DNA from: Escherichia coli
Lineage (GTDB): Bacteria > Pseudomonadota > Gammaproteobacteria > Enterobacterales > Enterobacteriaceae
Length of the DNA: 64,000 nt
Reading direction: 5' to 3' (one strand)
NCBI RefSeq assembly: GCF_009931435.1
Contig: NZ_CP043414.1
Shown: positions 8,505-17,944 of the stretch, piece by piece
Layout: each line of letters opens with the position of its first letter
Numbering within the stretch: position 1 is the stretch's first letter
Notes under the pieces: model-generated
The model's input: the letters and a program-made list of their open reading frames with translations, nothing else
Told to the model about the DNA's origin: nothing
The model's database searches: none
Position numbers and translations under genes: made by a program

Positions 8505-11500
8505 TAAACCCAAAGAATCTATAAACCGAACAGGGTTTAATGGATATTTATACAGATTCCATTCACCTCTTAGCCCGATTGGATCCTGGGTGATATACCT
8601 CCCCTGTAGCGGGTCATAGTACCGGTTCCGGTTATAATACAGCCCCGACTCCTCATCGTGTTGCTGCCCTGGCAGACGGTACGGCTGGTGCATGTGATGC
8701 GAGTTTTCCTCATTCAGCAGGTTTCCCCACTCATCATACTCCCCGCTCCACGCCGTATTGCCGTCTTCGCTGATGAGCGCCAGCGGCAGGCCCCGGTGGT
8801 CGCAGTGATACAGATGCAGCGTGCGTGCCGGTGTGTATTCCGGCTCCACCTGTCTGGCCAGTTGCTCCACCGTCAGCCCGCACTGCGCAAGCCACGCCCG
8901 GCTTTCACTGCTCACGCGGTCTGCCCGGATTTCTTCCTCCAGCCTGTCCAGCATCCTCACAAGTTCTGCCGGGAACACCACACCGTGCCCGTCCTCACTC
9001 CCTTCCTGCTGCAGCTTCTCCGCCAGGCTCCGGCGCTGCGCTTTCTCCCGCTCGCCGTTCTCTGTTTCGATGCGGATGAGCGGCGTGAAGCTCCCAGGCT
9101 GGTAGACCGTCTGGATACGTGTGGTGTCGGTCTGTACCGTCGTCAGCCGGTCACCGTCCCACCCGTACCACGTTACCTCCGGTTTACGCGACAGCGACAT
9201 CCACCCCGTCAGGTCACGCTCCCGCCGCCATACCCGTTTCGCCATTCGCCGTCCCAGCGGGTCGTAGAGGTAGCGGCTCTCGACCAGTGGCTCGCCATGC
9301 TGTATCCGCGTGTAGAACACCAGGCGTGCTGGCTGTCGTAGTGGTAGTGGTGGGTCCGCTCGTCGTCCGTCCGTATCACACCCGCCGGGATGCGGTCCGT
9401 CTTCTCCGTCAGCCTGCCGTATTCATCGTGGCGGTAGACATAGTGCGCATCCTCCGCGATGCGGTTATCCGGCCACACTGTGAGTGTACTGTCCGGGTGC
9501 AGCTCCGGGTCCGGCAGCCGGTTGCCCGCCGGGTCCGTGGCATACGGGATGCGGATGTCCAGGTCCGGTGCGAGGGTGCGCACGCTCTCCAGCCTGCCCG
9601 TGGCACTGTAGCCGTATTCCCGCGTCTGTCGCGGGCCGCTGATGCGCACCAGGTCGCCGTTGTCATTCCACCCGTAGTCACGGTCATACACCAGGCTGTT
9701 CAGGTGCTGACTCTGTAACTGACCTGCGGGGGTGTATGTGCTGGTCAGTTCGTATGCGGAATTACTGCCTGCCATGCTGCCGAAGCTGCGCACCGTCTCA
9801 CGGTGCAGCCTGTCCCGCGTATACTCGACCAGCGGCGTCCCGCCCAGCTTCATTCCCGCCAGGTAACCGCTGCCATACGTCAGCCACTCCACCGGCGGCA
9901 GGCTGTCCGGCGTGACGCGGTTTGCCAGCCCCTGTTCGTTGTATGCCTGTTTCGTCTCATGCTGCCAGAGCAGTTCCTCCGTCTCCGGGTTATGCACCGT
10001 CTGGCGCTCGCCAGTCAGACGGCCCTTGTCGTCATAGCCATAGTGGACGGCAACACGGTGGCCTTCGCTCAGGTGGCTGATTTCTCTCAGCCAGCCGTGG
10101 CCATCATACTGCCACTGCTCTGCCGGTTCGCCGTTCACCGTGCGGTGCGTGATGCGGTCCGATTCGTCGTAGTGCCAGAGGGTGACAAGCCCCTCATCTT
10201 CACTCTGCGTGAGTTTTCCGGTCAGGTCATAGTGGTAACGTTGCGTCCGCCCGTCAAAGCCGCGCTGCTGTACCAGCCGGTCCAGCGCATCGTAGGTAAA
10301 CTCACTTCGGCTGCCGTTCTCGTTAGTCAGCGTGGTGACACGTCCGGCAGCATCATACTCCATACTGCGCGTCAGCCCGCCCTGCGTGGTACTGACCGCC
10401 TTTCCCCACGCATCGTACTGTGTCTCACTCCGGTTGCCATCCGGGGTGATGACGGCGGTCAGGTCGCCTGCGGCGTTGTACTCATACTGCGTTTCACGGC
10501 CCTGTGCGTCTTTCACCGAGGTTAACCGGCCACGGTTGTCATAGCGGCGGTAAAGGCTGATACCTTCCTCGCGGTGAACCGCCGTCATCTGGCCGAAGCG
10601 GTCGTATTCATAGCGGGTCTGGTAGCCCGAGCAGTCGGTGAAGGCCAGCAACTGCCCGTAGCGGCTCCAGGTCATCTGCCGGGTGCTGCCCGTCGCATCC
10701 GTTGTCGTCGCCGGTAACTCACTGTGCGGATTATCATAAGCATACCGGATGACGTCCCCGCTGCGCGATGTCTCCGTTACCAGCCTGTCCCGCTCATCAT
10801 ACGCCCGGCGGCTCTCCAGCCCGTCCGGGGACACCACCGCCGTTAACTGGTTCCCGTCGTTATAGTAAAATTTCGTCTCCCGCCCGTCCGGCGTGGTGAT
10901 ATCCGTGATATCGCCGGACACCACATTCAGGCCGTACTCTGTCCGCCGTCCCGCCGCGTCCGTCTGTGCCGTGAGCCTTCCTGCCGCGTCATACCCGCTG
11001 TGCGTGACGCTGCCGTCCGCCAGTTCTTTTTTCACCACCCGCTTCAGCCCGGCCCCGCCTTCTGTATGCAGCACCTCTCGCCGGTTCAGGCTGTCCGTGA
11101 TGGTGATGCGGTCCTGCTCATAAAGATAGCGATAGCTTAACCCTGCCGGGTTCAGCTGCTCCACCACCCGCCCGGTATCGTCGTAGCGGTAGCGCATCTC
11201 CGGCCTTCCCGCATAACGGTGCCCCACCATCCGGCCCGGGTGCTGCGCGTCATACGTGAAAGCGCGCACCTGCGTATTGCTGCGGTCATATACCGCCAGC
11301 AGTTCACCGGCTTCCGTATACGTGTAACGCGCCAGTGGCGCACCGGGCAGATTCTCCGGGTATGCCGGGTCGTGCATCAGCCACACCGCCGAAAGACGGA
11401 TGCCCCTGTCGGGGCCGTATTCCGTACCGGGCAGTGTGTCGGGGAACGCTGAGGCTGAGAGAGGGCGGGAACGGTCAGAAGAAGATAGCGAAGAGGTGCG

Positions 11501-12277
11501 GGCCTCTTCCGCACGCTGCGCCTGCGTGGTCAGCACCAGACGGAACTTCCGCCCGGCACCGTCCGTCACGCTGGTGATTTCCCCAGCCAGGTCACCGGCG
11601 GCCTCACGCCGGTACGTCAGCGTCCGCCCGAAGCGGTCCGCCAGCCCGGTAAGCACCCGGTACGGCGGCAGCGGCGCTGGCAGTACGTCCTCAGCACCCG
11701 GCACCCGCTCACTCCACCCCAGTATCCACCACGACCCCTGTGCGCTGTTGGTCGCCAGGTAAAGATGCGGGCTTAACCGGATATCCGGCGGCAGCGCCCC
11801 CCACAGTCGCGCCAGCGTGTGGCCGTCCGGCTGCGCTGCCTTACCACCGCGCACCAGCCACATTGACTCGCTGCGGCTGTACACCGCCTCCCCCGGCAGC
11901 AGCGGCTCAAAGTGAATGCTCCGCCCGCCGTTGTCGTTGAGTATCAGTGCGTCATCACGTAGCTGTAAGCGGATATCCGAAGGCGCTTTCCAGCCGGGGC
12001 CGAAAACGCCCACCGGGGCAGGCGTCCTCGTCCGGTAGCTGCTGTAGGTGCGGGAGAGAATGAACGGCAGCGGGCCGGGCAGCGCAAGGTCCGTCTCGCC
12101 GGGCAGCACCTTCGCCCCCAGCAGCGGATTTACCGGGTTGCCCGAAGTCATCCCGCCCGGACACACCGAGCACGCCACGCCGGTGGGCGCGCCAATTCTT
12201 ACACCTGCCGAACCCTGGACAATGGGACCGCCATACTGAGTCATATCTCCCTGACGCGCTGCTGGTTTTCCGCTCAT
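8025..12277 (-). CDS. rhsE: Rhs-family protein (PAAR-like N-terminus, YD-repeat core, variable C-terminal toxin domain); reading frame broken by an apparent 1-nt deletion near 9327
   Basis: ORF 9209-12277 (1022 aa) starts [25 protein letters not shown] with an ATG at 12275-12277 and runs through YD repeats to ...[13 protein letters not shown] 8025-9320 (431 aa) continues in another frame through ...[27 protein letters not shown] and the C-terminal domain. Symbol assigned by locus position only. Confidence 0.85.
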
Positions 12278-12343: not shown

Positions 12344-14452
12344 TCAGTACTCTCTCATATCCGGCGTATCCTGCTTTTCATCAGGGGTCTTCGGTGGGGA
12401 TTTCGAGGCTGCACAGTTCCAGTTAATCAACAGTGAGTCACCATTAACCTGCTCCTTACCCTGCAAATGAATTTTTGTGCCGTTGAGAAAAATTTGTCCG
12501 TCCTTAGTCAGCACCAGCCTTGCCTTACCACAGCAGAGTTCCAGATGCTCACCGGCGGAGTAAATCGCGGTCTGCCCGGTATCATCCTTTTTCGTTTTAC
12601 CAACGGTGAAGGTAACGTTATTTCCGACTTTGACGTCATAACCCAGCCCGACCATCAACGATTTATGCAAACCGATCTGCGAGGACTGCATCAGGGCCAC
12701 CGAGGTGTTCATAATGCCACCTACCGTCGTCTGATACGCCACGCCCACAGTCAGCGCACGAACAAGTCCAATCGTTTCCACCTGAACAGAGCCCACTTTA
12801 ATGATCTGGTTACTGCCCACCGTCTCTATCTGGTTAACGCCCACCGTCTGTATCTGATTGTTGGTAACCGCAATCACCTGATTGTTGCCGATGGTCTCAG
12901 CATGGTTGTTTATCACATCCGTGGTGCGGTTATTCAGCACCTCGGTGTTCATGTTCTTCTGCGCGTGGATGTAGACCTGTTCTTTCCCTGTCGCATCGTC
13001 AAACTTCAGTTCATTAAACCCGCTGCCCTTATAGGTTTTCGAACGAATGGTCATCTGCGTCTTTGTTCCCGGCAGGCTGCCGGGGGTGCGGTTTTCCTGG
13101 TGGTAGGTACGCCCCATAATAATCGGCTGGTCCGGATCGCCGTTGAGGAAGTCCACAATGACCTCCTGACCCACACGCGGTATCGCCAGGTTACCAAACC
13201 CGGTGCCTGCCCACGCCTGTGCCACACGGATCCAGCATGAACTGTCCTGGTTTGACGGGTTATAACGGTCCCAGTTAAATTTCACCCGCACGCGGCCATG
13301 TTCATCACAGAAGATTTCTTCTCCTGCCGGTCCCGTCACGACGGCGCTCTGCGGGCCATCCACCAGCGGTTTCAGCAACGGCTGTGGCCGCCATGTTCTG
13401 TCTGCCGGTATTACCGCAAAGTGGTTATTCAGCGTGGTACCTGAACCCCTGCGTCCCGGCACCGCCTGCGGCTGCTCGCCGTGCAGTTCACTTGCCACCA
13501 CCTGCCATTCCCGGTTCAGGTTCGCCTGCGGATGCCCCGTCAGCGCAATTCGCCGTCCCGGCCATATCTCCGGAGAACGGCTTGTTCCGCGCGCCACTTC
13601 TGCGTTGTTTCGCCAGCCATCCATCTGCCAGCGGGCAAAGTTCTGCCCGTGGGCACCCTTGAAACGTCCGGGGTAGTCATACACTTCATACTGTGTGCGC
13701 TGGTAATCCTGGTACTGGCCTTCCTGATCAAAACGCCCTGCCCAGCCGGGTCGTTTAAAGGTGTAGTCCTTGGTCACCACGGAAGAAGGGCGGATTTGTG
13801 CGCTGTAGCGGAACTGGCTGATGCATAGGGTGCTCACCTCGGTACGGGTGTTCGGATTCCAGGGGATCTCAAAGGACTCCGGCAGATAACGCACGGTGTC
13901 GCACAGGACCAGGCTCTGGTCGGTACTTTTTTGCGCGTGCTCCTCATAAAAGAAGATGCCTTCCTCCGCCGCCATCCGGCACAGGAAATCGTAATCGGTT
14001 TCGCCGTACTGGACACAAAACTCACGGGAAGGATGCGGCTCGCTGAACAGCGGACTCCACTCGGTCACCCCGTTTTCTTTCAGGATCGTCGCGAGTATGC
14101 TTTCGATGTCCTCATTCTGGAAGATACGGAAGTTCTGGCGCAGCCCTGTGCGCCACAGCGGTGGGCACACCTTCATGCTGTACAGCATCTGGTTTTTGTC
14201 GTTCTCCCCCAGTTCAAACCAGGTCACCACACCTTTTACCCGGCGCTGTACGTCATCGCCCTGCCATACCGTCAGGTAGGCCATTTTGTCGAGGATCTGC
14301 GGAAATTCAAGGGAAAGAAACTGCTGACTGACCAGAGAAAGGTCGAGGGAAAAAAGTGAAGAGAGTGACTGGGTGAGATGAAAGGAAACCACCGCAAACG
14401 CGTCCGGTGGCAGGCCGTCCACTTCCAGCGTGAAACGTAATCCGGTTGACAT
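12344..14452 (-). CDS. vgrG: Type VI secretion spike protein VgrG
   Basis: N-terminus MSTGLRFTLEVDGLPPDAFAVVSFHL... is typical of VgrG; gp27/gp5-like middle region and C-terminal repeats (VINNHAETIGNNQVIAVTNNQIQTVGVNQIETVGSNQ); start set at the ATG at 14450-14452 with GGAGG upstream; ends 66 bp before the Rhs start. Confidence 0.9.
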   Translation of the reverse strand: MSTGLRFTLEVDGLPPDAFAVVSFHLTQSLSSLFSLDLSLVSQQFLSLEFPQILDKMAYLTVWQGDDVQRRVKGVVTWFELGENDKNQMLYSMKVCPPLWRTGLRQNFRIFQNEDIESILATILKENGVTEWSPLFSEPHPSREFCVQYGETDYDFLCRMAAEEGIFFYEEHAQKSTDQSLVLCDTVRYLPESFEIPWNPNTRTEVSTLCISQFRYSAQIRPSSVVTKDYTFKRPGWAGRFDQEGQYQDYQRTQYEVYDYPGRFKGAHGQNFARWQMDGWRNNAEVARGTSRSPEIWPGRRIALTGHPQANLNREWQVVASELHGEQPQAVPGRRGSGTTLNNHFAVIPADRTWRPQPLLKPLVDGPQSAVVTGPAGEEIFCDEHGRVRVKFNWDRYNPSNQDSSCWIRVAQAWAGTGFGNLAIPRVGQEVIVDFLNGDPDQPIIMGRTYHQENRTPGSLPGTKTQMTIRSKTYKGSGFNELKFDDATGKEQVYIHAQKNMNTEVLNNRTTDVINNHAETIGNNQVIAVTNNQIQTVGVNQIETVGSNQIIKVGSVQVETIGLVRALTVGVAYQTTVGGIMNTSVALMQSSQIGLHKSLMVGLGYDVKVGNNVTFTVGKTKKDDTGQTAIYSAGEHLELCCGKARLVLTKDGQIFLNGTKIHLQGKEQVNGDSLLINWNCAASKSPPKTPDEKQDTPDMREY

Positions 14453-15272
14453 AGCAACCTCCGTGAAAATGAATAATAATCCGCACATATTGCATGTACA
14501 ACATGTCGGACGGATGAGATAAGCGAGTCGACATCTGGCGTTACCGGGGAATATCAGAAAAATGTCATGGTTATGTGATGATTTAGTCTGGGATTTTACT
14601 TCAGAGAAACGGGTGTCTGTTTAGTCAACAAAATAATCACAAACGCAACGGATGGGTTCTCGACGTTATTCACGACAGGCTCGTACATTACAGCGAGTAA
14701 TAAAAAACCTGATATGCAAAGTCAAACCAATATTCATAATGTCTTTTTATTCACAAAAATAAATAATTCAATAACAATCATTGAAATGAATGATGGTTTG
14801 TATAAGGAATATACGCTACCGCCCCACCCTGATAACATGATCTGCACATTGCCATCTTAACGTCGTTAAACACTGGCTTAATAGTGGATATTTCAAATTA
14901 GGAATTTATTAAATTCACCTGATGAATATCATAAGCAAATAGCATAGAAAATAATGACAACTCCCCCGAGGGGACCATTTCCAAAGCACTGCAACACCAC
15001 CTGGTGCCCGGATGATCTTGCTTCAGTGGTAAGAGTACCTGATTCATTGTTCCCAAAATGGTGTTTTCCCCTGCCCCTCCAATAACGTGCAGCTCTCACG
15101 TGATAATCTATTGATTAGGTTATATTAAGAATCAATATTTGAAATACATCCATTTTCTTGAATAAATCAACATATTTATTTATCAATTGCTGTTTTAGCT
15201 CTGACTCATCAAACTCTCCATATTTTTCCTACAGAAAATCGCGAATAAATACAGAGAACGCCATTTATCCTT

Positions 15273-15485
15273 TTAGCATACCTGCCGGATATTTTTATTT
15301 GTATTAATATTAATTGCATCTCCAACTCCGAGCATATCCATTATTAAAGACATTTTGAGATTATAGAATGCCTGTGATAACAACTGAAACATCTGCACAA
15401 TGTGAATAGTTAGTTTCTTTTCAGAGGAAATGAAATAGACAAGCTGAATGAAAGGGAGAGTGATATAAATTAAAAAACATAACAT
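15273..15485 (-). CDS. Small hypothetical protein (70 aa), possibly yncH-like
   Basis: Only ORF in the AT-rich 1.1-kb spacer between vgrG and yncG; coding status uncertain. Confidence 0.3.
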   Translation of the reverse strand: MLCFLIYITLPFIQLVYFISSEKKLTIHIVQMFQLLSQAFYNLKMSLIMDMLGVGDAININTNKNIRQVC

Positions 15486-15560
15486 GAATCTAATTAATTA
15501 CGTCCATCATTGTGGATAAAGTTACTGAATAATAAATAACATAATATTCTGGTATCCCAC

Positions 15561-16178
15561 TCAAATAATTTCATTCCTTTTTAATACTTCTTGTAATTTC
15601 GGTAACTGACATACAGCATCAGCGATCGCACTGATATTCGTGGCATTATCCTGAAACCATTCATGCCCAGGCCCCCATGTGCGCATAGTGCAAAGATAAC
15701 AGTCCACCAGCGTTAGTTGCTCACCAAACGCATAAGGTTCAGCGGTCAATTGTGAATTCAGCCAGATATAAAGCGATTTACGATATTCAATAACATTCTT
15801 CTTTAACTGTTCGGGTGCGTCAGGAGCCCAACGCTCAGGGTAATCGGCGAAAGTGAATGTTGGATAGACATTAGCAACCAGCCAGACCAATAGCCGTTGA
15901 AACTGCTGACGTTCGGCGCGCCTAACCGGTGGCGCAAGGTCCGGGCGACGATCGAGAACCATCAATGCAATCGCCGCTGTCTCCGTCATAATCTCGTCAT
16001 TTTCCAGCGCCAGTGTCGGAATCTGACACAACGGGTTCAGGGTTTTCAATAACTCGCGTGAAGTTCCCTCGTGGTCAAAACCACTGACATCAACGAACTG
16101 ATAAGGAATATCAGCCAGTGATAGCATCAGCTCACTGATTGTAGAGCCCCATCCGGGTACGCCATACACCTTAATCAT
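15561..16178 (-). CDS. yncG: Glutathione S-transferase homolog
   Basis: 205-aa ORF with ATG start; thioredoxin-like GST N-terminal fold; position next to ansP. Confidence 0.85.
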   Translation of the reverse strand: MIKVYGVPGWGSTISELMLSLADIPYQFVDVSGFDHEGTSRELLKTLNPLCQIPTLALENDEIMTETAAIALMVLDRRPDLAPPVRRAERQQFQRLLVWLVANVYPTFTFADYPERWAPDAPEQLKKNVIEYRKSLYIWLNSQLTAEPYAFGEQLTLVDCYLCTMRTWGPGHEWFQDNATNISAIADAVCQLPKLQEVLKRNEII

Positions 16179-16444
16179 ATGCCCCTCACAATCTTTTAAA
16201 GATTAAGTGTAGGACAGTACACAGGTTAACCAGCAAAAGGATTTGTCATTTTTTCGTCAGTTGTATTATTCCCCTTCAGGATTGTAAGGGGATGTTTTGC
16301 ATCGTTTATCGATAACGGGTAGGATGCTGCGCCGATAGTTTTATACCCATAAAGAATAATGGTGATAACTATCATCGCCAGGATGAATAAACATTGTTCA
16401 TGGCAACTTATATGACTTTTTCATTAAAGCAATCAGGGAGAGCA

Positions 16445-17944
16445 ATGAGTAAACACGACACCGACACTTCAGATCAACACGCCGCGAAACGTCGCTGGCT
16501 TAATGCCCACGAAGAGGGGTATCACAAAGCGATGGGCAATCGCCAGGTACAGATGATCGCCATTGGCGGCGCGATTGGCACCGGCTTGTTTTTAGGTGCA
16601 GGAGCCCGACTGCAAATGGCGGGGCCAGCACTGGCACTGGTCTATTTAATCTGCGGCCTGTTTTCATTTTTTATTCTGCGTGCATTGGGTGAGCTGGTGC
16701 TACACCGCCCTTCCAGTGGCAGTTTTGTCTCTTATGCCCGTGAGTTTTTGGGTGAGAAAGCCGCTTACGTTGCTGGCTGGATGTACTTCATCAACTGGGC
16801 GATGACCGGGATTGTTGATATTACCGCTGTCGCTCTGTATATGCATTACTGGGGCGCGTTTGGCGGCGTGCCGCAGTGGGTCTTTGCGCTCGCTGCGCTG
16901 ACCATCGTTGGCACCATGAATATGATCGGTGTGAAATGGTTTGCGGAGATGGAGTTCTGGTTTGCGCTTATTAAAGTGCTCGCCATTGTGACCTTTTTGG
17001 TCGTGGGTACAGTGTTCCTCGGTAGTGGTCAGCCGCTGGATGGCAACACCACTGGCTTTCATTTAATCACCGATAATGGCGGCTTCTTCCCCCATGGTTT
17101 GCTACCTGCGCTGGTATTGATTCAGGGCGTAGTGTTTGCTTTTGCCTCCATTGAAATGGTGGGTACAGCTGCCGGAGAATGTAAAGATCCGCAGACCATG
17201 GTGCCTAAAGCGATTAACAGTGTGATTTGGCGTATTGGCCTGTTTTACGTCGGCTCCGTGGTGTTGCTGGTTATGTTATTGCCGTGGAGCGCGTATCAGG
17301 CGGGGCAAAGTCCGTTCGTGACGTTTTTCTCTAAACTGGGCGTGCCTTACATCGGCAGCATTATGAACATTGTGGTGCTGACCGCTGCCCTCTCCAGCCT
17401 GAACTCAGGTCTGTACTGCACCGGACGTATTCTGCGCTCAATGGCGATGGGCGGTTCCGCACCGAGTTTTATGGCGAAAATGAGTCGTCAGCATGTGCCG
17501 TATGCCGGGATTCTGGCGACACTAGTTGTGTATGTCGTCGGCGTATTCCTCAACTATCTGGTGCCGTCGCGCGTATTTGAAATTGTGTTGAATTTCGCGT
17601 CGCTGGGAATCATCGCATCATGGGCGTTTATCATTGTTTGCCAGATGCGCCTGCGTAAAGCGATTAAAGAAGGCAAAGCAGCGGATGTCAGTTTTAAACT
17701 GCCTGGCGCGCCCTTCACTTCCTGGCTGACATTACTGTTTTTGCTGAGCGTCCTGGTGCTGATGGCGTTCGATTACCCGAACGGAACTTATACCATTGCG
17801 GCGCTGCCGATTATCGGTATTCTGCTGGTTATAGGCTGGTTTGGTGTGCGCAAACGCGTTGCTGAAATTCACAGCACTGCGCCAGTCGTCGAGGAAGATG
17901 AAGAACAACAGGAAATTGTGTTTAAGCCAGAGACGGCGAGTTAA
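16445..17944 (+). CDS. ansP: L-asparagine permease (APC family)
   Basis: Amino-acid permease signature (MIAIGGAIGTGLFLGAG); start moved to the ATG at 16445 (GGGAG RBS), giving 499 aa. Confidence 0.92.
   Translation: MSKHDTDTSDQHAAKRRWLNAHEEGYHKAMGNRQVQMIAIGGAIGTGLFLGAGARLQMAGPALALVYLICGLFSFFILRALGELVLHRPSSGSFVSYAREFLGEKAAYVAGWMYFINWAMTGIVDITAVALYMHYWGAFGGVPQWVFALAALTIVGTMNMIGVKWFAEMEFWFALIKVLAIVTFLVVGTVFLGSGQPLDGNTTGFHLITDNGGFFPHGLLPALVLIQGVVFAFASIEMVGTAAGECKDPQTMVPKAINSVIWRIGLFYVGSVVLLVMLLPWSAYQAGQSPFVTFFSKLGVPYIGSIMNIVVLTAALSSLNSGLYCTGRILRSMAMGGSAPSFMAKMSRQHVPYAGILATLVVYVVGVFLNYLVPSRVFEIVLNFASLGIIASWAFIIVCQMRLRKAIKEGKAADVSFKLPGAPFTSWLTLLFLLSVLVLMAFDYPNGTYTIAALPIIGILLVIGWFGVRKRVAEIHSTAPVVEEDEEQQEIVFKPETAS

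What the first reader, a model, noticed from the sequence alone, without database searches (positions are those of the whole stretch)
14453..15560. 1.1-kb AT-rich non-coding spacer upstream of vgrG
The segment between the vgrG start and yncG has no ORF over 70 aa, is strongly AT-rich with multiple A/T tracts, and is where a promoter and likely nucleoid-protein (H-NS type) silencing of the horizontally acquired vgrG-rhs operon would sit. It may also hold relics of lost upstream genes.
Basis: inference. Interest (0 to 1): 0.35.

Follow-up and report, generated by a model that had tools for sequence, protein, structure and literature searches.

The report
AT-rich control region upstream of vgrG
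The AT-rich gap upstream of this E. coli type VI secretion spike gene is real and mostly ordinary: it is H-NS-bound DNA holding a doubtful annotated mini-gene (yncH), plus one conserved unannotated ~150-bp element found in front of several different toxin islands.

Summary
The interval 14453-15560 is exactly the vgrG-to-yncG gap of the E. coli rhsE locus. It is 35% GC against 49.5% for the window. "No ORF over 70 aa" is literally true, but the 70-aa ORF at 15273-15485 (-) is the annotated gene yncH (Pfam DUF5445).

That ORF looks spurious. Its length is matched in 30% of shuffles. It occurs only in Escherichia. Its SNPs are flat across codon positions, with pN/pS 0.69 against 0.20 for yncG. 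Two lineages carry frameshifts that remove its start.

Published K-12 data, on a 97.7% identical orthologue, report H-NS binding, weak σ70 RNA polymerase binding in vitro, and a PhoB site at 14552-14569. This supports the H-NS reading. No gene relics were found.

The spacer is a mosaic. The 505 bp next to vgrG travel with the vgrG-rhs island and recur at the cusS locus. Within them, a ~150-bp element (14801-14957) has a near-invariant 37-nt core. It lies upstream of four different orphan T6SS islands and occurs in 5265 of 5426 genomes. It is more conserved than the leader beside it.

I infer it is a shared promoter/operator. No start site is mapped. Mostly ordinary; modest interest.

The parts
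14453..14957 (-). vgrG-linked upstream module (505 bp): the 5' leader plus a conserved element. It belongs to the vgrG-rhs island rather than to the yncG/yncH backbone.
   Evidence: It is about 81% identical to the sequence upstream of a paralogous vgrG-DcrB-Rhs island next to cusS (L004), and homology stops at 14957. Its SNP density among 14 E. coli lineages is 0.03-0.08, against 0.12-0.17 in the yncH half.
14801..14957 (-). Conserved ~150-bp element found upstream of several different orphan T6SS effector islands. I infer it is a shared promoter/operator region.
   Evidence: Against the cusS paralog, 14920-14801 is 91% identical and the adjacent leader 73% (Fisher p=2e-5). Recognisable copies occur in the alternative ansP-linked islands L005/L010 (77-81%), L009 (74%, truncated by an ISAs1 element) and NC101 (core only). 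5265 of 5426 complete E. coli genomes hold at least one copy.
14811..14847 (-). 37-nt near-invariant core GTGCAGATCATGTTATCAGGGTGGGGCGGTAGCGTAT. It contains a GATC site at 14839.
   Evidence: It is 94.6% identical in the B2-type PAAR-vgrG island (L008/L007), where the flanks cannot be aligned. The stretch 14810-14863 is 100% identical in L005. No conserved ORF runs through it because of indels in L004. No RNA structure or covariation was found.
14854..14881 (-). Candidate conserved σ70 promoter: -35 TTAAGC (14881-14876), 16-nt spacer, -10 TAAGAT (14859-14854). The predicted start site is about 14847, at the first bases of the core.
   Evidence: The -10 hexamer keeps T1, A2 and T6 in all five island types (TAAGAT or TATGAT) at a fixed position 6 nt before the core. 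This is inference only: the scores are no better than shuffles.
14902..14916 (.). Perfect 7-1-7 palindrome GAATTTATTAAATTC in the AT-rich upstream half of the element. It is a possible protein-binding site.
   Evidence: Read directly from the sequence. It is partly conserved in L004, L005 and L010 and weaker in NC101.
14697..14725 (-). Published predicted constitutive σ70 promoter for rhsE, TTGACT-17-TATTAC.
   Evidence: Motif taken from Shimada 2014 Table 3, with a unique exact match in the window. The -35 reads TTAACT in the cusS paralog.
14552..14569 (+). PhoB ChIP-seq binding motif TATCAGAAAAATGTCATG, reported to lie in an H-NS-bound region.
   Evidence: Fitzgerald 2023 Table 1, with an exact match in the window. 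It is poorly conserved in the cusS paralog.
14458..14462 (-). vgrG ribosome-binding site GGAGG, 5 nt upstream of the ATG at 14452.
   Evidence: The sequence CGGAGGTTGCTATG is shared with the paralogous vgrG of the cusS island and with vgrG3 of the EDL933 main cluster. In vgrG3, homology begins exactly here.
14962..14974 (-). Weak terminator-like hairpin (TCCCC-TCG-GGGGA followed by a T-rich tail) at the junction between locus-specific DNA and the vgrG module.
   Evidence: It is the only terminator-like site found in the scan, and one is also the number expected by chance. It sits 5 nt beyond the end of paralog homology at 14957.
14958..15272 (.). Locus-specific filler (39% GC) with a GC-richer patch at 14950-15100 (51% GC). 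No function is assigned.
   Evidence: It is single-copy in E. coli (3575 genomes). No tRNA, no Rfam hit, and a fold z-score near 0 on both strands. No protein similarity. The Shimada RpoD gSELEX peak (1525368, intensity 0.05) maps to about window 15077 by my coordinate conversion.
15273..15485 (-). Annotated ORF yncH (70 aa, DUF5445). It is probably not a functional protein-coding gene.
   Evidence: It matches Pfam PF17520. All 158 homologues found are from Escherichia at 84% identity or more. Across 14 lineages there are 27 SNPs, split 8/9/10 by codon position, with pN/pS 0.69. That is indistinguishable from neutral (p=0.46) and differs from yncG-like constraint (p=0.003). Independent +1 and -1 frameshifts just after the ATG occur in L014-type and L019 lineages.

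Best explanation
The interval is a non-coding, H-NS-bound regulatory and filler region made of two unrelated halves.

(1) 14453-14957 belongs to the vgrG-rhs effector island. It consists of a ~350-nt, fast-evolving 5' leader ending in the vgrG ribosome-binding site, preceded by a ~150-bp element under sequence constraint. I infer this element is the shared promoter/operator of orphan T6SS effector operons. In that reading, an AT-rich upstream part carries a palindrome. A positionally conserved -10-like TAAGAT follows. A 37-nt GC-richer core then sits at the predicted transcript start, either as an operator overlapping +1 or as the conserved 5' end of the leader.

(2) 14958-15560 is locus-specific AT-rich DNA that carries the annotated 70-aa ORF yncH. 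That ORF evolves like its non-coding flanks and is most likely an annotation artefact or a non-functional proto-gene.

By analogy with the near-identical K-12 sequence, H-NS coats the AT-rich region and keeps the weak promoters quiet.

Shown: composition, mosaic structure, differential conservation, neutral evolution of yncH, and absence of relic genes. From the literature on K-12: H-NS, RNA polymerase and PhoB binding. Inferred: promoter position, the role of the core, and silencing of this particular operon.
For: Boundaries and annotation. AT-richness. yncH identity. yncH restricted to Escherichia and highly variable. ORF length not beyond chance. Flat codon-position SNP spectrum, pN/pS 0.69 against 0.20 for yncG, and start-destroying frameshifts. 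H-NS, RNA polymerase and PhoB binding in K-12. Module shared with the cusS island. The element is more conserved than the leader (91% against 73%, p=2e-5). The element or core lies upstream of four different island types, in 5265 of 5426 genomes. At the cusS locus the element lies about 275 bp inside the inserted DNA, so it is not simply the junction. The -10-like hexamer is conserved in position and at its critical bases. SNP density is lower in the module than in the yncH half.
Against: No σ70-like match in the spacer scores above composition-matched shuffles, and no transcription start data could be retrieved.

The gSELEX RNA polymerase peak is weak (0.05). By my coordinate conversion it lies near 15077, about 200 bp upstream of the proposed promoter. 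Shimada's Table S2 row lacks the HNS mark that the main-text table has.

In NC101 and L009 an ISAs1 end follows the core directly, so the distance from core to gene is not conserved there. An allele of the core with four clustered changes and no GATC exists (L010/L009). Conservation of the element could therefore partly reflect gene conversion or recent spread rather than selection.

yncH stays open in all 14 sequences examined, with no nonsense mutation. A small or fast-evolving protein therefore cannot be excluded.
Confidence: 0.6

Rival explanations
1. yncH is a genuine small protein gene, perhaps a small membrane protein given its hydrophobic N-terminus. The spacer is then two ordinary intergenic regions around it.
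For: RefSeq annotates it in thousands of genomes, and a Pfam family (DUF5445) matches it at E=1.6e-38. The frame is open in all 14 lineages examined and in 158 database variants, some with in-frame indels.
Against: An ORF of this length is expected by chance in 30% of shuffles. The SNPs are spread evenly over codon positions (8/9/10). pN/pS is 0.69, not different from neutral and significantly different from yncG (p=0.003-0.006). SNP density equals that of the flanking non-coding DNA. Two independent frameshifts remove the annotated start in widespread lineages. No homologue was found outside Escherichia. The full-text search turned up no study of its expression or function.
Confidence: 0.15
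2. The conserved element is not regulatory. It is a recombination anchor or mobile-element remnant that marks where T6SS effector cassettes are exchanged, and it is kept similar by gene conversion.
For: Different islands sit downstream of the same element at the ansP/yncG locus. ISAs1 (H-repeat) ends abut or truncate the core in NC101 and L009. Several independent rearrangement junctions fall in this spacer: K-12 at 14520, 2020CK-00188 at 14542, and IS1 at 15150. L005 carries a core identical to the window, while its sister type L010 differs at clustered positions, a pattern typical of conversion.
Against: At the cusS locus the element lies about 275 bp inside the island boundary. A 37-nt core is short for homologous recombination. 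There are no flanking inverted or direct repeats. The -10-like hexamer changes only at its least critical position. By eye, the XerD arm of a dif site is not matched.
Confidence: 0.2
3. The spacer encodes a cis-acting RNA leader or a small RNA that controls vgrG post-transcriptionally. Comparable cases are the EHEC h3R region and RsmA control of orphan vgrG genes in Pseudomonas.
For: If transcription starts in the element, the leader would be long, about 350-395 nt. Published work shows that the hcp3-vgrG3 intergenic region represses vgrG3, and that swapping the vgrG1 promoter did not give VgrG1 protein.
Against: No Rfam hit at E≤1. Fold z-scores are near 0. The consensus folds are weak (-6.4 and -1.0 kcal/mol) with no covariation. 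The leader is the least conserved part of the module, at 50-80% against the paralog. h3R is not homologous to this module.
Confidence: 0.1

Closest known systems
H-NS-bound AT-rich promoter regions of horizontally acquired genes in E. coli and Salmonella (xenogeneic silencing), including the T6SS clusters of EHEC and SPI-6
   Same: The region is AT-rich (35% GC) and sits next to GC-rich acquired genes (rhs 61-70% GC). The K-12 orthologue is reported as H-NS-bound by ChIP-seq and gSELEX. It has weak RNA polymerase binding and many weak promoter-like sites.
   Different: Silencing of this particular operon has not been demonstrated. In K-12 the vgrG gene itself is deleted. The best-conserved part (the core) is GC-richer (47.5% GC over 14808-14866) and so is unlikely to be the H-NS nucleation site.
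yncH / DUF5445 (Pfam PF17520)
   Same: The 70-aa ORF at 15273-15485 is an orthologue (91-97% amino-acid identity) and matches the Pfam model over residues 19-70.
   Different: The family shows none of the expected properties of a conserved protein. It is genus-restricted, has a neutral substitution pattern, has an unstable start codon, and is no longer than chance allows.
h3R, the hcp3-vgrG3 intergenic regulatory region of EHEC EDL933 (Vazquez-Lopez et al. 2026, PMC13141884)
   Same: It is also a non-coding region directly upstream of a vgrG gene that separates it transcriptionally from the upstream gene. It also contains a predicted terminator, promoter and 5' UTR. The two share the vgrG ribosome-binding site and coding start.
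   Different: There is no sequence homology beyond the 11 nt before the ATG. h3R is 209 bp and GC-rich, whereas this module is 505 bp and AT-rich and belongs to orphan islands.
Fur/Dam epigenetic switch of the EAEC sci1 T6SS promoter (Brunet et al. 2011; recalled from my own knowledge, not read here)
   Same: A GATC site lies in the most conserved part of a T6SS-associated upstream region, next to promoter-like hexamers.
   Different: The best Fur-box match is no better than chance (13 of 19), and only 9 of 19 within the core. A natural allele of the core lacks the GATC.

Membership tests
H-NS-silenced xenogeneic promoter region | AT content well above the genome average | tested here: met
   35.2% GC against 49.5% for the window, in the lowest 1.5% of 1108-bp windows.
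H-NS-silenced xenogeneic promoter region | H-NS occupancy in vivo or in vitro | not testable with these tools
   The literature on the 97.7%-identical K-12 spacer reports an H-NS gSELEX site (PMC3946193) and places it in a ChIP-seq H-NS-bound region (PMC10294691 Table 1). Matches to the high-affinity motif TCGATAAATT are not enriched (4 against 2.8±1.7).
H-NS-silenced xenogeneic promoter region | Derepression of the downstream operon in an hns mutant | not tested
   No data for vgrG-rhsE were found. EHEC Δhns raises main-cluster T6SS mRNAs (PMC13141884).
σ70 promoter | -35/-10 hexamers better than expected from composition | tested here: not met
   The consensus scan found 3 sites against 5.8±2.5 in shuffles. 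The best position-weight-matrix score was 8.1 against 9.9±1.3 in shuffles.
σ70 promoter | Conservation of the critical -10 positions across diverged copies | tested here: met
   TAAGAT or TATGAT occurs at a fixed position before the core in five island types, with T1, A2 and T6 invariant. The inner TATATT loses T6 in three types.
σ70 promoter | Mapped transcription start site or RNA polymerase binding | not testable with these tools
   A weak RpoD-holoenzyme gSELEX peak exists in the K-12 spacer.
YncH / DUF5445 protein family | Match to the family HMM | tested here: met
   PF17520, E=1.6e-38, 130.7 bits.
YncH / DUF5445 protein family | Purifying selection on the protein (as a test of a real coding gene) | tested here: not met
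   pN/pS is 0.69, not different from neutral (p=0.46). Codon positions carry 8/9/10 SNPs. yncG has pN/pS 0.20 and 23/4/39.
YncH / DUF5445 protein family | Conserved start codon and reading frame | tested here: not met
   +1 (L014-type) and -1 (L019) frameshifts directly after the ATG. Database variants are 62-100 aa with different N-termini.
Known structured RNA (Rfam) | Covariance-model match, or conserved structure with covariation | tested here: not met
   No Rfam match at E≤1 over 14000-16500. No covariation was seen in the element. Fold z-scores were -0.16 and +0.30.
Pseudogene relics of T6SS or other genes | Translated similarity to a real protein family | tested here: not met
   tblastn with 16 island proteins gave E≥0.65 throughout. 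HMMER against 1.84 billion representatives returned only short ORF calls at 55-97% identity. Nine of the ten longest scanned had no Pfam domain, and the tenth matched only DUF5445 from the edge of yncH. No Pfam or NCBIfam hits were found for the spacer ORFs.
EHEC h3R regulatory region | Sequence homology to the hcp3-vgrG3 intergenic region | tested here: not met
   Only the ribosome-binding site and the vgrG coding region align (93% from 11 nt before the ATG). The rest gives E>0.5.
Fur/Dam-controlled T6SS promoter (sci1 type) | Fur box overlapping GATC sites at the promoter | tested here: not met
   A GATC is present at 14839, but the best Fur-box match is 13 of 19, the same as chance, and 9 of 19 within the core.

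The most novel reading that the evidence does not exclude
The ~150-bp element with its 37-nt near-invariant core is a dedicated, previously undescribed cis-regulatory module. It would be an operator or conserved 5' end that places otherwise unrelated orphan T6SS effector operons of E. coli under one common, still unidentified regulator. Those operons include vgrG-rhsE, the cusS-linked vgrG-DcrB-Rhs island, and the ansP-linked PAAR or hypothetical-vgrG islands. This could explain why promoter swapping and hns deletion fail to switch these islands on.
Probability: 0.3. Interest if true: 0.5.

Novelty: new member of a known kind. Interest (0 to 1): 0.27.

Why it matters
As first stated, the finding adds little. 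It is the known yncH-rhsE intergenic region of E. coli, and it is already listed as H-NS-bound.

Two points have some value. First, yncH/DUF5445 is propagated through thousands of genome annotations, yet it has the evolutionary signature of non-coding DNA. It should be treated as doubtful.

Second, orphan T6SS effector islands in E. coli are notoriously silent in the laboratory. A short conserved sequence shared by several unrelated islands gives a concrete target for finding the regulator or start site that controls them. Deletion or mutation of 14811-14881 would be the direct test.

Tried and rejected
- **Structured RNA.** Rfam scan of 14000-16500 at E≤1 gave nothing. ARAGORN found no tRNA. 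The GC-richer patch 14940-15110 folded with z near 0 on both strands. RNAalifold on the element in both orientations gave weak energy and no covariation.
- **Repeats.** Only short chance-level matches were found, with no inverted or direct repeats flanking any part.
- **Relic genes.** Pfam and NCBIfam on all spacer ORFs hit only DUF5445. tblastn with island proteins found nothing. A concatenated six-frame HMMER search found only short ORF calls.
- **h3R homology.** Rejected.
- **Known regulator motifs.** Fur, σ54, CRP and Pho-box consensus matches were not above chance. The published PhoB site does match exactly.
- **Other candidates checked by eye only.** dif/XerCD site, CsrA site and RcsAB box did not fit convincingly.
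- **Spread outside E. coli.** An exact 20-mer scan of the core across one genome per species found one hit, a B2-like contig labelled Citrobacter MAG that also carries yncG. No wider spread is therefore shown. The scan needs an exact match, and the E. coli species representative evidently lacks the locus.
- **Transcription start data.** Cappable-seq supplements had no matching coordinates. Thomason 2015 is not held. Conway 2014 supplements are not held.
- **Wasted search.** The full-text search for 'b1455' returned only unrelated papers.
- **Invalid calculations, not used.** The first Nei-Gojobori run for yncH was out of frame after a gap column and was replaced. The vgrG dS yardstick was invalid because of alignment gaps.
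- **NC101 filler.** The 203-bp filler between yncG and the core in NC101 is not homologous to the spacer (score 22 against 17.8±2.5 in shuffles).

Full report
**Context.** The window is an E. coli chromosome segment carrying pqqU, yncE, ansP, yncG, the spacer, vgrG, rhs and ISAs1. The spacer matches 3539 of 5426 complete E. coli genomes over at least 80% of its length, mostly at 95-99% identity. Annotated near-identical records give the vgrG start at window 14452 and the yncG stop at 15561. Pfam confirms the neighbours: VgrG (Phage_GPD, Gp5_trimer_C), Rhs and a GST-like YncG.

**Observation.** The interval is 35.2% GC against 49.5% for the window. It is the second most AT-rich kilobase in the 64 kb. 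The longest ORF is 70 aa, so the statement "no ORF over 70 aa" holds. That ORF (15273-15485, - strand) is nevertheless the annotated gene yncH (b1455), DUF5445/PF17520, E=1.6e-38. "Non-coding" thus conflicts with public annotation.

**Is yncH real?**
- ORFs of at least 70 aa occur in 30% of composition-matched shuffles of the spacer.
- All 158 homologues found among 5.8 billion proteins are from Escherichia at 84% identity or more. There are many amino-acid variants, and annotated lengths run from 62 to 100 aa.
- I aligned yncG-to-vgrG from 14 lineages, including a cryptic-clade Escherichia.
- yncH carries 27 SNPs, spread 8/9/10 over codon positions: 20 non-synonymous and 7 synonymous. pN/pS is 0.69, which is indistinguishable from neutrality (p=0.46).
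- That value is significantly different from the constraint on the neighbouring yncG (pN/pS 0.20; 23/4/39; p=0.003, Fisher p=0.006).
- SNP density in yncH (0.127) equals that of its non-coding flanks (0.119-0.173).
- Two lineages carry independent +1 and -1 frameshifts directly after the annotated ATG, one of them represented by hundreds of contigs. The "protein" then starts elsewhere.
- The frame has no nonsense mutation in the 14 sequences, so a young or very small product cannot be excluded.
- The most economical reading is that yncH is an ORF maintained by chance in recently shared DNA.

**H-NS and promoter.** Published data exist for the K-12 orthologue, which is 97.7% identical from window 14520 onward. 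K-12 has lost vgrG and the 5' part of rhsE.
- Shimada et al. 2014 list a weak RpoD-holoenzyme gSELEX peak in the yncH>rhsE spacer. Its position is 1525368 with intensity 0.05, which is about window 15077 by my conversion.
- Their main-text table marks an H-NS site there and predicts the promoter TTGACT-17-TATTAC. That motif has a unique match at 14725-14697 on the vgrG strand.
- Fitzgerald et al. 2023 report a PhoB ChIP-seq site, TATCAGAAAAATGTCATG, upstream of rhsE. They flag it as lying in a region bound by H-NS in the Kahramanoglou 2011 ChIP-seq. It is at window 14552-14569.
- FlhDC gSELEX also gives a weak peak here.

This supports H-NS binding and RNA polymerase binding, but not yet silencing of this operon. 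By sequence alone no promoter stands out. The consensus scan found 3 sites against 5.8 expected. My position-weight-matrix scan gave a best score of 8.1 against 9.9±1.3 in shuffles.

**Relics.**
- tblastn with Hcp, PAAR, DcrB, DUF2169, DUF4279, TssB, Sel1, TPR, ISAs1 transposase and the hypothetical proteins of alternative islands found nothing below E=0.65.
- All stop-free six-frame segments of at least 24 aa from 14453-15290 were searched as one query against 1.84 billion representative proteins. This returned only 31 short proteins (34-105 aa) at 55-97% identity, which I take to be ORF calls from this or paralogous loci.
- Nine of the ten longest had no Pfam family. The tenth matched only DUF5445, from the edge of yncH.
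- The GC-richer patch at 14950-15100 is single-copy in E. coli. It is not a tRNA and has no Rfam match. It folds no better than shuffles.
- The relic idea is not supported.

**Mosaic structure and the conserved element.** Most genomes showed a second match to part of the spacer.
- That second match is the upstream region of a paralogous vgrG-DcrB-Rhs island next to cusS. Homology runs from inside vgrG to window 14957 and then stops. The 505 bp next to vgrG therefore belong to the island, and 14958-15560 belong to the yncG/yncH backbone.
- Conservation within the module is uneven. The ribosome-binding site and coding region are 91% identical to the paralog. The leader 14800-14466 is 73% identical, with 50-65% in its proximal part. 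The stretch 14920-14801 is 91% identical (Fisher p=2e-5 against the leader).
- The same element recurs at the ansP locus upstream of quite different islands. In L005 and L010 (77-81%) it precedes two hypothetical genes followed by vgrG-DcrB-Rhs. In NC101 and other B2 strains only a 37-nt core survives (94.6%), upstream of PAAR-vgrG-DUF2169-PAAR-like. In L009 it is truncated by an ISAs1 element and no T6SS genes remain.
- In all, 5265 of 5426 genomes carry at least one copy, and no genome has more than three.
- At the cusS locus the element lies about 275 bp inside the inserted DNA. It is therefore not just the insertion junction.
- Indels exclude a conserved ORF through the core.
- The EHEC h3R region upstream of vgrG3 is not homologous.

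**What the element might do.** A -10-like hexamer, TAAGAT or TATGAT (14859-14854), sits at a fixed position 6 nt before the core in all five island types. Its positions 1, 2 and 6 are invariant. A -35-like TTAAGC or TTGAGC lies 16 nt upstream in the two closest copies. An AT-rich stretch with a perfect palindrome (14902-14916) lies further upstream.

The alternative promoter-like site inside the core (TTATCA-16-TATATT) loses the critical last T in three types.

I therefore propose, as inference, that transcription starts at about 14847. The core would then be either an operator overlapping +1 or the conserved 5' end of a ~395-nt leader. This is not established. The scores are at chance level and no start-site data could be obtained. 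A natural core allele with four clustered changes exists (L010/L009). Gene conversion could also contribute to the similarity.

**Verdict.** It is the known yncH-rhsE spacer, already reported as H-NS-bound. The additional content is a doubtful annotated gene and a conserved, unannotated upstream element shared by orphan T6SS islands. That element is a modest but testable lead.

Noticed in passing
window 8025-12277 (- strand): The rhs gene downstream of vgrG is split into two overlapping ORFs. One is 9209-12277 (1022 aa, DUF6531 plus RHS repeats). The other is 8025-9320 (431 aa, RHS core motif). This suggests a frameshift, so rhsE may be a pseudogene in this strain.
   Followed up: partly
window 14520, 14542 and 15150: Three independent rearrangement junctions fall inside this spacer in other strains. 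K-12 has a deletion of vgrG and the 5' part of rhsE ending at 14520. Strain 2020CK-00188 replaces vgrG with a TPR-protein gene from 14542. Strain FACU 2024 has tandem IS1 copies from 15150.
   Followed up: partly
L008 6038-6200 and L009 6100-6240: In NC101-type and L009-type strains, the sequence directly after the conserved core (CAGGGAAAGATyACG...) is shared between the two. In L009 it leads into an intact ISAs1 transposase gene. It therefore looks like an ISAs1 (H-repeat) left end abutting or truncating the core.
   Followed up: partly
L010 6090-6117, L009 6075-6100: A second allele of the core has four clustered substitutions (GATTAAGATATCAGGG instead of GATCATGTTATCAGGG) and lacks the GATC site. 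L005, otherwise the same island type as L010, carries the window-like allele. This suggests a micro-conversion.
   Followed up: no
window 14857-14869; L017 19102-19124: The palindrome TTAAC-N3-GTTAA overlaps the candidate -10. A similar TTAACCACGTTAA lies just upstream of hcp3 in the EDL933 main T6SS cluster (78% identity over 23 nt, E=0.5). This could well be chance.
   Followed up: no
window 14582-14857 (+ strand): A 92-codon stop-free frame lies antisense to the vgrG leader and runs through the core. Gene callers have annotated it in some genomes (for example P0121, 87 aa, 97% identical). It has no Pfam match, and indels break it in the cusS paralog.
   Followed up: partly
window 4800-6000: This is the most AT-rich kilobase of the window (32-34% GC). 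It contains a 240-aa ORF (5271-5993, -) with no Pfam match, next to a DDE transposase ORF (6195-6977). It probably holds the rhs-associated immunity or orphan-toxin region and the ISAs1 element.
   Followed up: no
L011 4035-6213: In the cryptic-clade Escherichia sp. E4742, the yncH spacer (about 95% identical) is followed by a 659-aa VgrG and a DcrB gene. That is the architecture of the cusS-type island rather than the 702-aa VgrG-Rhs seen here, so effector cassettes have been swapped downstream of the same spacer.
   Followed up: partly
L004 5737-5762: Strains without the cusS-linked island lose homology about 20 nt inside the 3' end of cusS. The island insertion therefore appears to have replaced the last codons of cusS.
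   Followed up: no
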